NCBI GenBank assembly: GCA_951406725.2
Contig: OX597833.1
Location: 35,402,001-35,466,000 of the forward strand
Length of the DNA: 64,000 nucleotides
DNA from: Octopus vulgaris
Lineage: Eukaryota
Direction: 5' to 3'
Shown: piece by piece, positions 1,683 to 60,997 of the stretch
Numbering within the stretch: position 1 is the first letter of the stretch
Layout: the number at the start of each line of letters is the position of its first letter
Position numbers and translations under genes: made by a program
Notes under the pieces: generated by a model
What the model saw: the letters and a program-made list of their open reading frames with translations, nothing else
Told to the model about the DNA's origin: nothing
The model's database searches: none

Positions 1683-2562
1683 TTTTTATTTTACATTAGA
1701 GATACACAGGTATATGAGTCTGTTTATATATCAGTCTGTCAGTATACATGAATATGTTTGTAAATTTCTGCGTGCGTGTGTGTGTGTGTGTGTGTGTGTA
1801 TGTGTTTTAGTTGTAAGCTGTAGTCGCACTCCGTAGCTACTTTGTTTAAATCGTTTTCTCCTGATATGGAATCAACCTAAATGAATTTAAACACAGTAAG
1901 AGAAGAAATCTTGAGAACTGTGTGACAGACTGATAACTATTTTACTTAAAACTCTGAATGATGACAAAAATCATTGATCCGGTTTAATATAGTAATTAAA
2001 AAATATTCTTCTATTTGCATAACTATTAGGCAAGTAATGTATATTTTTTTTAACAAATTTCAACCGAAATATATTCCTAATTGTCGAAAACACCGTTTCG
2101 TTTGTTGGAAATATAGCAATATCAATCTACACTTGGGGTCACCTTTATAATAACATTGATAACAATTGGAACTTACTTTGCAAGATATAACAATTGTTTC
2201 TATGTGAGGGAAAATGTTTTTCTCATTGTCTAATGAGAAACTGAAAGATAAAAATTGTAGAACCATCCATTCATATATATTCTTACTTACTCGGGATCCA
2301 AACTCACATTTACTTCTATTCACTAAATCTTTGCAATGTTGAATCGACAATTCCTCCTTTTTCGTTCTTTTATTTGGCAAACATTTATTTAAAAAATACA
2401 ACGTAAAAATAATTTTGAAATTATTACCGTGAAAAGAAATAACTAAATAGATCTATTTCTTGAAATCATTAAGTTTCATCGCGAAATACTGTCTTATTGC
2501 TAAACTGTGTTGAACTTAACGAATACGGTTCAGAATTATTTTTATTTTAGTCTGTTTCTTTC

Positions 2563-2813
2563 CATTTTTTATCAATTCGGTGTCCATATGGACCTTGGGA
2601 GTCCACTTAAGATTTCATTGTTAAAATTTTTATCCAGTAAATTCGTTATACTTCTATAATACACAAAATATTTCAGCAACTTTTTATACAATTCCGAATG
2701 ATATTTAATTATAAAGATATGGAATATTTTAAACATCGATTGGTTGGGAGGGTCCATCCGAGTAAGAGAGGAATCGAAGGGGTCCATAGATAAAAAATTG
2801 TTGAGAAACACTG
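2563..2813. mobile_element. Putative hAT (Charlie-type) MITE
   Basis: Right end ttgagaaacactg is the reverse complement of CAGTGTTTCTCAA and is followed by ttctaga, a Charlie-like NTCTAGAN target. A degenerate left TIR cattttttatcaa starts at 2563. Subterminal ggtccata-like motifs occur near both ends. Confidence 0.5.
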
Positions 2814-3179
2814 TTCTAGAGTATTACTCACACATATGGGACAAAGCACACACGTTTTCAGGTCGTATTTAAAATGAGGTCATCACATTGATAGGTCTAT
2901 ATCCCAACAATATTTTGTGTTGTCTCTGTTACTCCTCTGTATTTACTTCAAGGCTCCCTATTCTTTTCACATAGCAAGCTCTGTTCCAGCTGATGAACCC
3001 AATTTTCCGCTTTTTCTTATTCCTATTCTGTTTTACCTTCCGAATCCCATACTAATCATTTTACCCAAATCTTCCCATCCCGAAATAAAACCTAGACTTT
3101 CCTTATAGATATCTATTTACAGAACTATGTGAATTGCACAGCAGTGTTATATAACATTACTGTATATTATTATGAAATA

Positions 3180-3414
3180 ACTGAAGCGTGTAAGGTGTTT
3201 ATAAACAATTTAAGAAACACACAAAATCCGTTAGATTCACTTCAACATTTAAATTAAATTTGACAAATTAAATTTAAATTTAAATGTTGAAGTGAATCTA
3301 ACGGATTTTGCGTGTTTCTTAAATGGCTTATAAACACCTTCCTCGCTGCAATTGTTTTCGTTCCAGCACACGATCTCAGATCAGGTCACTTGCTATGCAA
3401 GTACATCTCCGTAA
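3180..3414. mobile_element. Fold-back insertion with 12-bp TSD (possible Penelope-like inverted pLTR)
   Basis: Inverted arms 3192-3255 and 3277-3340; flanking direct repeat tattatgaaata at 3168-3179 and 3415-3426. Confidence 0.65.
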
Positions 3415-4146
3415 TATTATGAAATACTTTATTATAAAATCAATGTTATAATTAATGTTATGATATAATTCTTATCTAATGTTATGCCTGTTAGCTTAAC
3501 CCGTTTTTTCCCTTCTCCACTAACATTTCATATCGCTCATGTGTATTTGTTCTCATTCAAGAACGCTTTGTAAAGCTGCGAGCTCTACCTTAGACTATAT
3601 GATAAAAAGAGTTATATCGAAAAGACATTTTACATTCATGTTTGACTATTAAAAATATAAAAGAAAAATATTAAAAAAAAATTTAATTCACTTCGTGGAT
3701 ATTTCAATACATTATGTAACTTTAACTAGAAATTCCAAGAGAGTATATACTTAAGAATTAATCATTGTTTTTATTTCTTCTTTCCCTTTAGACTTTGCAT
3801 ATTTTGTTGACTGACTTGAATTTAAAATAAACATTTATAGTGTGATTTATATATTATAAAATTTACCAACATTAAACTATTTAAAATTTTATCTAACGGT
3901 TGAAATTCCACATTTCAGAGCTCAGCCTTTCCATCTGTTATCTGAATAAGGTTTTTTATATATATATATATATCGGATTTTCCCGTATTTTCTTATTTGC
4001 TCATAACGGATTTTAAATCTTTGTTATTAAAAATAGCTTAAACAAAGGAAATTATGTTGATTTTTCAAGAAGTGAACCTTTAAATGATAAACTGTGTGCA
4101 TATAGACGTATACATACACACACTCACACACACATGTATATATGTG

Positions 4147-4244
<98 letters not shown>

Positions 4245-5032
4245 GATATTAGAGCCGAGTCAAGTTGTGATTTGTGAGGTAAAAGAATTATATTGAGTTG
4301 ACTAGCCGTTGGGTGTCTGCCATGTGAGCAGCAGATTGACGATCTTGAAGATAATACTAAAAGGCTGAAATATTTGTTGTGAAACCCTTCCACTTTCCCT
4401 AATAGTCGAAGAGAGACAGATCGACTGACTGCAGTGGAAAATAATAACACCACATAACAAAAGAAAGTTGTTTGTATTGATGTTGCTGCTGTCTCCTTCC
4501 ACTATGCCGCTGCCTGTCTGTGTCTGTGTCTGTGTAAAGTGTTATTGAACGTCTGGCCTTGCTGTTGTAATGTCTGGCTGAGTTGTTGTACGTTCGCTTG
4601 TTATTGTCTAGGCCTTTGTTTCCCTGTCCGCTATATTCCCTTGATTGTCCATATTTGGCGTTTACAATATTTTTGTGTTGTATCTCATTGACTTAATGAA
4701 TTGCTTCGTTTATTTATTTCTAAAGTGTATAGTTGGCTCGTGTTGATGTTGCCGCTGCCGACATCCACGTTGTGTTTGGTAGTGAATGTTCAGCCTCAAT
4801 TTTTTGTTAGTATAGTTTTTTCGTTCTTTTTCTTTTTTTTTTCTGTTATCAACTCTTGCAATATCCATCTTCGTTGAGTATGTGTCATGGTGCCGCAAAG
4901 GTAGCGTCAAATTTTTAAATTCCTTGTAATGTTCTTGTCGAATTGGCACCCGGGACACGGTGACACTTAGAACAAGGAATGTCCACCGAATAAGGCACTA
5001 TCACTAAGCATACGCTCTCATTGAATTAAATT

Positions 5033-59560: not shown

Positions 59561-60430
59561 GCTAGTGCTGGAAAGAAGTGTCACGTGGCATGAGAGACTG
59601 CAATATTGCAACCTTGCACAAGAACAAAGGAGATAGAAGCCATTGTAACAACTACAGAAGATTATTCTTGTTGAGTGTCGTTGAGATGGTCCGAAACAGA
59701 TTATAGAGAATCCCTGAAAGGATATACCCCCCCCCCAATCGTCTCAGTGGTGTTTCAGGTCAAAATGCTTCACAATTGAAATAGTCTTCTTACATTGACA
59801 ATTACAAGATAAGTGCAGAGAGCAAAGACAACCATTCTACATAGCTTTCATTAACCTCTTAAATCTACTGAGTTGAGATGGTCTTTTCAGAACTTTTCTC
59901 AAGATTGGGCGTTCCGAGGTTAGTCATAATTGTTTAGTCATTCTACACAAACATTAACTGTGTCATTCTCAGAAATATGCTGGTATTTGCAATGAAGTGT
60001 AACAAAGCTCTGTGCTCGTTTTCGCCGGAAAAGAGTAGTCTCAACACGAACTATGCTGACATTGCGAGTCTGGGAGAACATAAAGCTAACTGCGTACACA
60101 AATATTGAAGTTTACTCAGCTTGCGTCCGCAACACACAAAGTTATAAGAGTGGAGCTTGGAACAGCTACTCCAGACTAGAGCAGAGTCTCAATACTTACC
60201 ACCTACGTATCTCGAAAATGATTCTGAAAACTTCAAGAGGACTACTGAATAACGAAAAAAGAGTTCCTGGTTCTTGCAGAAGTACTAAGTTTTCTCATTC
60301 CTCTCCCTAGTGCAACAACGATGCCTCTGCTGGTTAAATCATTTACATTGTTTGTAAGATGGAAAAGTCCTGAAAGTCTATTGCATATCGAACTGGCTTC
60401 TGGCAGGGGAACATATGAGTGAAACTGGTT
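59561..60430 (+). mobile_element. RTE-clade LINE relic (RT and C-terminal region, heavily decayed)
   Basis: MRDCNIATLHKNKGDRSHCNNYR; ERIYP..SQWCFR; QLQDKCREQRQPFYIAFINL; LTLRVWENIKLTAYTNIEVYSACV; QRCLCWLNH...DGK..ELASG. All align by eye to typical RTE ORF motifs. Confidence 0.85.
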
Positions 60431-60461
60431 TTATAAGGAGTTAGATGACTATATATATATA

Positions 60462-60991
60462 TTTGTGTATCAAATAGCTAACTTAAGGCGATGGCCTCAT
60501 GGAGCTAATAAGCGGACAGCTTTATTCTTATTTTTATAAGAATGCCATATTAGTATGGCGATAACTATTATTTTCCGGGAACGCTGCCGTTGTTCTCTTT
60601 TAGAGAGACTTAGTAATTTTAATATTTCTATTATTGAAAACAAGTGGATGTATTCCACCGAAGCTAGGTAAATAAAACCTTCGAACAGAGATTGTCAGAA
60701 GCGACACCTACTGGTCTGGCTACGCTGCATTGAAAAGGGGCAATACCCCGAAACGCGTCTGTAGCTGCCGGTCAAGTAGTGTGGAGCGACTGACCTCCCT
60801 TGTTCGAAGGTTATATGGATACAGTTTGTGTATCAAATAGCTAACTTAAGGCGATGGCCTCATGGAGCTAATAAGCGGACAGCTTTATTCTTATTTTTAT
60901 AAGAATGCCATATTAGTATGGCGATAACTATTATTTTCCGGGAACGCTGCCGTTGTTCTCTTTTAGAGAGACTTAGTAATTTTAATATTTC

Positions 60992-60997
<6 letters not shown>
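60462..60997 (+). mobile_element. Retrozyme-like / Penelope pLTR-like partial tandem (363-bp period, 173-bp identical direct repeats) in (TA)n
   Basis: 60462-60634 is identical to 60825-60997; the 190-bp spacer contains a hammerhead; TA repeats on both sides. Confidence 0.75.
60724..60765 (+). ncRNA. Minimal type I hammerhead ribozyme with U3-A8 core variant (predicted)
   Basis: GCUGCA-UUGAAAA-GGGG CAAUA CCCC-GAAA-CGCG-UC-UGUAGC: 6-bp stem I, 4-bp stem II, palindromic minimal stem III ACGCGU, GUC cleavage site after 60759. Confidence 0.8.

What the first reader, a model, noticed from the sequence alone, without database searches (positions are those of the whole stretch)
60462..60997. Hammerhead-ribozyme element with a compensatory U3-A8 core, rod-like fold and 363-bp partial tandem: a candidate retrozyme or Penelope-derived element
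Seen: two identical 173-bp direct repeats (period 363) inserted in (TA)n. The spacer holds GCUGCA UUGAAAA GGGG-CAAUA-CCCC GAAA CGCG UC UGUAGC, which folds exactly as a type I hammerhead. The core is UUGAAAA instead of CUGANGA, so both partners of the C3-G8 tertiary pair are changed to U3-A8. Stem I extends into a long rod: 60716-20/60767-71, 60708-12/60775-79, 60694-98/60790-94, and a perfect 12 bp at 60676-87/60801-12. Known: minimal type I hammerheads with a palindromic stem III (here ACGCGU, allowing dimeric folding) mark Penelope-like pLTRs and metazoan non-LTR retrozymes, which yield small circular RNAs. Inference: a young, non-coding, self-cleaving retroelement copied from a circular or multimeric RNA, or a partial-tandem pLTR. 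This locus has only one ribozyme, so it cannot release a unit-length monomer by itself.
Basis: partly seen in the sequence, partly recalled or inferred. Interest (0 to 1): 0.88.

Follow-up and report, generated by a model that had tools for sequence, protein, structure and literature searches.

The report
Hammerhead retrozyme pasted by Penelope-like element
This is one young copy of a widespread 363-base non-coding repeat that carries a conserved, predicted self-cutting 'hammerhead' RNA and was likely pasted into a TA microsatellite by a Penelope-type jumping gene; it is a new member of a known class (retrozymes), its unusual core pair is already in print, and neither cutting nor RNA circles have been tested.

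Summary
Observation confirmed: identical 173-bp repeats (period 363), a type I hammerhead with U3-A8, a palindromic stem III and a long rod (z -7.3). The unit is a genome-wide family (1,166 and 1,647 exact core matches in two overlapping patterns) with three subfamilies that keep U3-A8 and show compensatory changes in stems I, II, III and the rod; tandem multimers occur (43 of 139 loci). Insertions end at two fixed 3' sites 63 nt apart and run into (TA)n; all 65 two-armed insertions with both ends classifiable have one long and one short end. An intact Neptune-like Penelope element in the same genome shows the same two-end pattern, TA target and a U3-A8 hammerhead, but no alignable sequence, so the helper is likely, not proven. 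Units within one young insertion usually share one haplotype, which fits a circular monomer template; a few mixed arrays show multimer templates too. Verdict: new member of the known animal non-LTR retrozymes; U3-A8 was described in 2011 and 2014. Cleavage, expression and circles untested. This scan noted the same family before in this genome (e1-9518766, e1-8672139) and similar ones in other genomes.

The parts
60450..60461 (.). Left remnant of the (TA)n target, joined to the 5'-truncated end of the insertion
   Evidence: sequence
60462..60997 (+). Whole insertion: one-armed, 536 nt = 1.48 units of a 363-nt retrozyme (subfamily A), 5'-truncated, ending at the 'long' 3' end
60462..60634 (+). 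Partial upstream unit (173 nt, copy 1 of the direct repeat); not an LTR but the overrun of reverse transcription past one full unit (inferred)
   Evidence: 5' ends vary between copies, 3' ends do not
60635..60997 (+). One complete 363-nt unit; 41% G+C, longest ATG frame 38 aa, identical to the subfamily A majority
60676..60812 (+). Long rod extending stem I; compensatory pairs 60710/60777, 60719/60768 between subfamilies and 60682/60806 in one haplotype; 5' truncations of other copies pile up at its 3' foot (60797-60816)
60724..60765 (+). Type I hammerhead: stem I 60724-29/60760-65, stem II 60737-40/60746-49, predicted cleavage after 60759
60730..60736 (+). Core positions 3-9 with U3 (60730) and A8 (60735); position 7 varies (A, C, U) between subfamilies while 3 and 8 do not
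60753..60758 (+). Palindromic stem III hexamer; changed on both sides to another palindrome in subfamily B; predicted to pair between two ribozymes (dimer form)
60825..60997 (+). Copy 2 of the direct repeat: several small hairpins (two with compensatory pairs) and both family 3' end sites; likely the region the helper protein recognises
60935..60997 (+). 63-nt 'tail' between the short 3' end site (about 60934, also 60571) and the long 3' end site (60997, also 60634); inferred to lie between two reverse-transcription start sites
   Evidence: PMC11167929
60998..61070 (.). Right (TA)n target tract

Best explanation
The stretch is a young, 5'-truncated copy of a 363-nt non-coding repeat family with a conserved U3-A8 hammerhead fold (an animal non-LTR retrozyme) that was likely inserted into a (TA)n tract by the reverse transcriptase and GIY-YIG endonuclease of a Penelope-like element (PLE) acting in trans. 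Shown: family, fold conservation, multimers, two fixed 3' ends 63 nt apart, TA target, one long plus one short end in two-armed copies, an intact PLE with the same footprint. Inferred: (1) source arrays with two or more ribozymes are transcribed; (2) the ribozymes cut, probably as dimers through the stem III palindrome, and unit-length RNA is circularised by a host ligase (as shown for coral, mussel and axolotl retrozymes); (3) a PLE protein dimer cuts both strands of (TA)n and primes from two fixed internal sites on the same RNA, one per DNA end; (4) each cDNA runs through the cleavage junction, often for more than one unit, often stalls at the foot of the rod, and the two cDNAs are joined head to head, or one alone is joined to the target as here. 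This copy ran 536 nt from the long site; with one ribozyme it cannot release a monomer alone. My odds: PLE-type mobilisation 0.9; ribozyme active in some form 0.65; circular monomer is the usual template 0.55; the U3-A8 Neptune-like family at L063 is the helper 0.4.
For: Family: 1,392 first-look candidates, 40 scored, best places 99-100% over 363 nt; 1,166 exact core matches, control 0, 100 of the 100 listed U3-A8; 1,647 with U3-A8 against 13 with C3-G8 for the same stem I strand, and the 12 of those 13 fetched have no similarity to the unit. Structure: 95.9% of 1,318 cells paired, 6 of 44 pairs with double changes, 0 of 500 shuffles reach the covariation score, slid controls 30-41%; four of these are subfamily-level events, including stem I and the first pair of stem II; stem III palindrome swapped in subfamily B (54 of 58 units listed); two more compensatory pairs in the 3' hairpins; two hammerheads co-fold to the dimer form as minimum-energy state, -47.7 against 2 x -19.7 kcal/mol. 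PLE footprint: 206 of 240 arms in 139 loci end at one of two sites; 176 of 206 run into TA; 65 of 65 two-armed copies with both ends classifiable are long+short (41 of 41 in the 80 pattern-sampled loci). This is the 'tail' and inverted 5'-truncated copy described for PLEs (PMC8557442) and explained by two internal RT start sites and cutting of both strands (PMC11167929). Helper present: 781-aa RT + CxxxxCxxC + GIY-YIG frames in many near-identical copies, with a U3-A8 hammerhead in the pLTR, TA target, two 3' ends 40 nt apart, and 6 long+short two-armed copies against 0 long+long or short+short. Template: 163 of 206 arms cross the cleavage junction, 116 exceed one unit; 5' ends are not enriched at the cleavage site (7 of 141, 5.4 expected) but at the rod foot (27 of 141, 7.8 expected); in subfamily A units differ 0.62% within an arm, 0.94% between arms, 2.28% between loci; 172 of 187 minor alleles and 9 private alleles are carried by every unit of a locus.
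Against: No cleavage, expression or circle was tested. No alignable sequence between the unit (A, B) and seven PLE 3' regions (best p 0.11) or, by blastn, the PLE loci (hits were separate retrozyme insertions nearby), so the helper is not identified; the tail is 63 nt against 40 nt in the candidate. Four of the 6 long+short PLE copies were selected to have a long end; 3 further two-armed PLE copies had an unclassifiable short arm and 2 ran off the fetched DNA. A second very active PLE family showed one end type only in 9 copies. 21 of 86 two-armed retrozyme copies had at least one end outside both sites, and 8 of 139 loci were complex. Against a strict monomer circle: L146 carries a mixed array with 6 register-matched differences in both arms and L140 one such site, which needs a multi-unit template; of 19 partly shared sites 11 were register-matched and 8 were not; in the older subfamilies only 116 of 231 (B) and 20 of 53 (C, one locus misassigned) minor alleles are fixed across units, with a CpG mask taken from A only. 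Four of 44 pairs are broken in 6-12 of 30 sequences, including the outer stem I pair in B; the covariation rests on three related subfamilies. In vitro, a PLE hammerhead was dispensable for insertion and needed protein to cut, and only 1 of 9 Xenopus retrozyme dimers cut. Rfam finds no hammerhead.
Confidence: 0.85

Rival explanations
1. Same element and same PLE helper, but the template is an uncut linear read-through transcript of tandem source arrays; the ribozyme is slow, regulatory or vestigial and circles play no part in transposition.
For: Unprocessed RNA was the main substrate of a PLE in vitro and ribozyme mutants inserted normally (PMC11167929); register-matched mixed arrays L146 and L140; arrays of 5 or more units exist as possible sources (L111, L166, L176); no 5' ends at the cleavage site fits uncut RNA as well as circles.
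Against: Private alleles fixed in all 2-6 units of a locus, across both arms in some (9 in subfamily A), are simplest with a one-unit bottleneck; core, stems and palindrome were kept with compensatory changes across three subfamilies 12-20% apart.
Confidence: 0.35
2. The unit is the pLTR of an autonomous PLE that I did not find, and the copies are its 5'-truncated partial tandems.
For: Hammerheads sit in pLTRs, U3-A8 included (PMC4209133); 24 of 57 Xenopus retrozyme families matched known elements, 21 of the 22 matched being PLEs, at their termini (bioRxiv 2026.07.22.740005); only the best 150 of thousands of PLE candidates were scored per search.
Against: In 139 loci the arms consist of head-to-tail units up to more than 6 units long and none runs 5' into an ORF; PLE protein matches lie within the fetched flanks of only 5 of 139 loci, and in the four read out (L005, L079, L129, L147) they are separated from the unit by TA tracts or other sequence. 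An ancient origin from a pLTR is not excluded.
Confidence: 0.07
3. A minisatellite spread by DNA-level duplication, unequal crossing over or gene conversion, or an assembly artefact; the hammerhead is incidental.
For: Tandem arrangement; TA tracts are hard to assemble; no laid contig spans this locus; one pair of loci is a duplicated block ending at an assembly gap.
Against: Dispersed over many chromosomes with different flanks, fixed 3' ends, ragged 5' ends and a strict long+short rule; similar one-and-a-half-unit copies at other loci (L002, L014, L023, L028, L123, L134); covarying RNA stems; the family is present in contigs of independent runs.
Confidence: 0.03

Closest known systems
Animal non-LTR retrozymes (Cervera and de la Pena 2020, PMC7229834: passages and results sections 13-14 read; Li, Clavereau and Pollet 2026, bioRxiv 10.64898/2026.07.22.740005: parts 1-3 of 5 read, supplements closed)
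   Same: Non-coding 150-450-bp tandem units (mussel 350-390 bp), G+C under 50%, one type I hammerhead per unit, monomers to multimers dispersed in the genome, self-paired fold, no LTR, co-existence with PLEs.
   Different: U3-A8 core; strict (TA)n target; two fixed 3' ends with inverted second arm, not described for retrozymes in the parts read; no pLTR homologue found, unlike many Xenopus families; cleavage and circles not shown here.
Penelope-like elements, Neptune/Nematis type (Craig et al. 2021, PMC8557442: 12 passages read; Frangieh et al. 2024, PMC11167929: parts 1-2 of 4 and passages read)
   Same: 5' truncation, partial tandems, inverted 5'-truncated second copy, a tail at only one end, AT-rich/(TA)n target, hammerhead with palindromic stem III.
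   Different: No ORF; tail 63 nt rather than 30-40; in vitro the two start sites did not differ between DNA strands, whereas here the two arms of an insertion never share a site (65 of 65).
U3-A8 hammerhead variants (Perreault et al. 2011, PMC3088659: passages read; Cervera and de la Pena 2014, PMC4209133: parts 1-2 of 4 read)
   Same: Compensatory U3-A8 pair in nature; about 1,300 such motifs in Schistosoma Cercyon PLEs; Perreault states that ribozymes covarying at these positions were active in vitro.
   Different: Here the variant is fixed in a tandem retrozyme of canonical build with a long stem I rod, not in minimal, mostly single PLE motifs.

Membership tests
Type I hammerhead ribozyme | Core with a 3-8 Watson-Crick pair, G5, A6, A9, G12-A13-A14, A15.1-U16.1, H17 | tested here: met
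   T-A at 3/8 in 160 of 162 A, 23 of 24 C, 56 of 56 B units (many loci were picked by a core pattern, so this is biased upward)
Type I hammerhead ribozyme | Stems I, II, III conserved by covariation | tested here: met
   double changes at 60727/60762 (stem I) and 60737/60749 (stem II); palindrome swap in stem III; few independent events
Type I hammerhead ribozyme | Match to an Rfam hammerhead model | tested here: not met
   no hammerhead family at E<=10
Type I hammerhead ribozyme | Site-specific self-cleavage | not testable with these tools
   only energy models
Animal non-LTR retrozyme | Non-coding 150-450-bp unit, G+C under 50%, one type I hammerhead per unit | tested here: met
   363 nt, 41% G+C, longest ATG frame 38 aa
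Animal non-LTR retrozyme | Tandem copies with two or more ribozymes somewhere in the family | tested here: met
   43 of 139 loci, 13 of 40 in the position-ordered sample; not at this locus
Animal non-LTR retrozyme | Dispersed multicopy with retrotransposition footprint and no true LTRs | tested here: met
   the direct repeat length varies between copies
Animal non-LTR retrozyme | Expressed as linear and circular unit-length RNA | not testable with these tools
   only assembled contigs were offered; see Tried and rejected
Autonomous Penelope-like element | RT plus GIY-YIG ORF between pLTRs | tested here: not met
   no ORF in the unit, no tblastn match of the PLE protein in the window, no arm runs into an ORF in 139 loci
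Sequence mobilised by a PLE | Two 3' ends (tail), inverted 5'-truncated arm, partial tandems, AT-rich target | tested here: met
   same footprint in the resident PLE
Derivative of a PLE pLTR | Sequence homology to the pLTR of an autonomous family | tested here: inconclusive
   none found with the families sampled; PLE sampling was incomplete

The most novel reading that the evidence does not exclude
The family is a natural record that a PLE protein dimer primes the two ends of one (TA)n break from two fixed, non-interchangeable sites on the same non-coding circular RNA and rolls round it, so that hammerhead circles are true transposition intermediates, and that the parasite keeps the same U3-A8 core as its Neptune-like helper.
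Probability: 0.35. Interest if true: 0.65.

Novelty: new member of a known kind. Interest (0 to 1): 0.38.

Why it matters
The class and the core variant are known, so the locus itself is ordinary. Its value is as a test system: which enzyme moves animal retrozymes, and whether circles are the template, are still inferred in the papers read. Here a young 363-nt substrate, an intact candidate helper and a sharp in vivo rule (one long and one short end per two-armed insertion, 65 of 65) sit in one genome and can be put straight into the existing in vitro PLE assay. I found no paper on a cephalopod retrozyme in searches for hammerhead with octopus, cephalopod or retrozyme; supplements of the retrozyme papers were not read and could list one.

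Tried and rejected
Rfam scans of the region, of the bare motif and of a subfamily B copy: no hammerhead. First core pattern was mis-specified and found 2 matches; redone. Expression: no RNA holder listed (20 of 22 rows hold the stretch, 0 on record as RNA); four guessed-RNA contig sets cover the element and not the unique flank 60200-60440, but they may be DNA and contigs show no ends or circles, so I draw nothing from it. Four further contig sets hold the family, three also the left flank, but no piece spans the locus and no empty allele was seen. Homology between the unit and PLE pLTRs: none. C3-G8 'ancestors' of the family: 13 matches, 12 fetched, unrelated. Chimeric PLE-retrozyme insertion at L005/L074: rejected, 156 bp of another repeat lies between them. 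Co-transduction of retrozyme plus PLE (L301/L302): the shared 7.7-kb block ends at an assembly gap, uninformative. I first read PLE family 2 (L283) as following the long+short rule; one search showed direct partial tandems with one end type in 9 copies, so that claim is withdrawn. A monomer energy used a mis-registered structure and was redone. Bacterial promoter scan: at chance level and not relevant. Target-site duplications could not be read inside TA tracts. Searches for 'U3A8' and 'core variants' gave 0 papers; the 2017 paper on dimer cleavage of PLE hammerheads is not held and is recalled only. Sequence look-up in earlier scan notes was blank.

Full report
Observation. The fold is far beyond chance (z -7.32, 0 of 200; descriptor 1 in the window, 0 in 200 shuffles). 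Rfam reports no hammerhead, probably because of the core change and the short stem III (inference).

Family. The window lies in a 2.8-Gb animal genome (I took it for cephalopod-like from recalled repeats, untested). The unit has 1,392 first-look candidates; the 40 scored give full-length matches at 99-100%, one at 100%. Exact patterns give 1,166 cores (control 0; 100 of 100 listed U3-A8) and, with a different overlapping pattern, 1,647 U3-A8 against 13 C3-G8 matches; 12 of the 13 were fetched and are unrelated. Three subfamilies appear: A (this copy, identical to the majority), C (about 86% to A) and B (about 80-84%; 2,724 candidates). Divergence between units of one arm, a rough age clock, is 0.62% (A), 2.3% (C), 4.6% (B).

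Structure is under selection. On 30 chosen sequences (12 A, 8 C, 10 B, out of 100 distinct ones), 95.9% of 1,318 cells pair, 6 of 44 pairs change on both sides and 0 of 500 shuffles reach the covariation score; slid partners pair 30-41%. Four double changes are subfamily-level (60710/60777, 60719/60768, stem I 60727/60762, stem II 60737/60749). Position 7 varies while 3 and 8 do not, and the stem III hexamer is replaced by another palindrome in B. Two more compensatory pairs lie in hairpins of the 173-nt part (20 sequences). Against: four pairs are broken in 6-12 of 30 sequences, and related sequences can beat shuffles. Closing stem III in a monomer costs energy, while two copies co-fold to the dimer hammerhead as minimum-energy state. 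This predicts dimer cleavage; it does not show it.

Insertion anatomy. I examined 139 loci: 28 best hits to the unit, 29 best hits to B (3 duplicate loci dropped), 2 and 80 picked from the pattern lists of contigs C1-C2, of which 40 were taken in positional order. 206 of 240 arms end at one of two sites 63 nt apart; 176 of 206 run into TA. 45 loci are one-armed (29 long, 12 short, 4 other; this locus is one-armed long), 86 are head-to-head two-armed and 8 complex. Of the 86, 65 have both ends at the two sites and all 65 are long+short; 21 have at least one end elsewhere. In the 80 pattern-picked loci it is 41 of 41. 43 of 139 loci (13 of 40 in positional order) carry two or more tandem ribozymes and could release a monomer. 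5' ends cluster at the 3' foot of the rod (27 of 141, 7.8 expected), not at the cut site (7, 5.4 expected), which suggests the rod is folded while it is copied and that the template does not begin at the cut.

Helper. The genome holds intact PLEs: 148 GIY-YIG matches among 150 scored of 6,136 candidates, many in 781-aa frames with RT, a CxxxxCxxC linker and GIY-YIG, i.e. Neptune/Nematis type by the motif given in PMC8557442 (passages). This family has a U3-A8 hammerhead in its pLTR with the same stem III palindrome as subfamily B, inserts in TA, and has two 3' ends 40 nt apart; 6 two-armed copies are long+short, none long+long or short+short, 5 could not be classed, and 4 of the 6 were selected for a long end. 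Further PLE families also carry U3-A8 cores. A second very active family showed one end type in 9 copies. No PLE end aligns with the unit. So PLE-type mobilisation is well supported; the exact helper and a pLTR origin are not.

Mechanism. Frangieh et al. 2024 (PMC11167929, parts 1-2 of 4 read) showed that a PLE protein, predicted to be a dimer, cuts and extends both strands of AT-rich DNA and starts at two internal RNA sites that bound the genomic tail; its hammerhead needed protein and was dispensable for insertion. The footprint here fits directly, and adds that in vivo the two arms never use the same site. On the template: 163 of 206 arms cross the cut junction and 116 exceed one unit, so it is a circle or an uncut multimer. 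In A, 172 of 187 minor alleles and 9 private alleles are shared by all units of a locus, which favours a one-unit bottleneck such as a circle; but L146 and L140 carry register-matched differences in both arms, so multi-unit templates are used at least sometimes, and B and C are much less clean. Circles are shown for coral, mussel and axolotl retrozymes (PMC7229834, passages and two sections), while only 1 of 9 Xenopus dimers cut in vitro (bioRxiv 10.64898/2026.07.22.740005, parts 1-3 of 5). I could not test expression.

Comparison. It works like, and meets every testable criterion of, an animal non-LTR retrozyme except an Rfam match; it is not an autonomous PLE. U3-A8 is in print: natural examples and a statement that such covarying ribozymes are active in vitro (PMC3088659, passages), and about 1,300 motifs in Schistosoma PLEs (PMC4209133, parts 1-2 of 4). 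Paper searches found no cephalopod retrozyme; supplements were not read. Earlier notes of this scan describe the same family elsewhere in this genome and similar ones in other genomes; I reached my reading before seeing them and they are not independent support.

Verdict. Real feature; new member of a known kind; interest 0.38, mainly as a ready test system for how PLEs move hammerhead RNAs.

Noticed in passing
L063 (G000:C5:1039500-1047500), 1081-2520 and 2439-4784: The active Neptune-like PLE has a second, 479-aa upstream frame that overlaps the start of the RT-EN frame and has no Pfam match above cut-off; PLEs are usually described with a single ORF.
   Followed up: partly
L040, L043, L048, L054, L292, L293: U3-A8 hammerhead cores recur in several PLE families of this genome, one with the same seven core letters as the window copy, so the variant may be the local norm for TA-targeting PLEs.
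   Followed up: partly
L283 (G000:C7:35722000-35731000): Second very active PLE family (150 of 150 scored matches 100% identical over 149 aa) with an 859-bp direct pLTR, one 3' end type in 9 copies and a hammerhead-like motif with an atypical core.
   Followed up: partly
L232-L243: An older PLE family ends in a 13-nt motif matching the retrozyme's long end at 12 positions; a helper candidate or AT-rich chance.
   Followed up: no
L146 (G000:C1:137294100-137297100): Mixed array: the upstream unit in both arms carries letters of another subfamily, so both arms were copied from one mixed multi-unit template or one from the other.
   Followed up: partly
L161-L180: A branch of subfamily B has a different 6-nt loop 2 that recalls, from memory and untested, the loop of the canonical schistosome hammerhead.
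   Followed up: no
L301 / L302: A 7.7-kb block (retrozyme, TA tract, truncated PLE, LINE) is present on two contigs and ends at an assembly gap on one; duplication or misassembly.
   Followed up: yes
L150, L152, L153, L155, L158, L159: Scattered, diverged canonical C3-G8 hammerhead-like motifs unrelated to this family.
   Followed up: no
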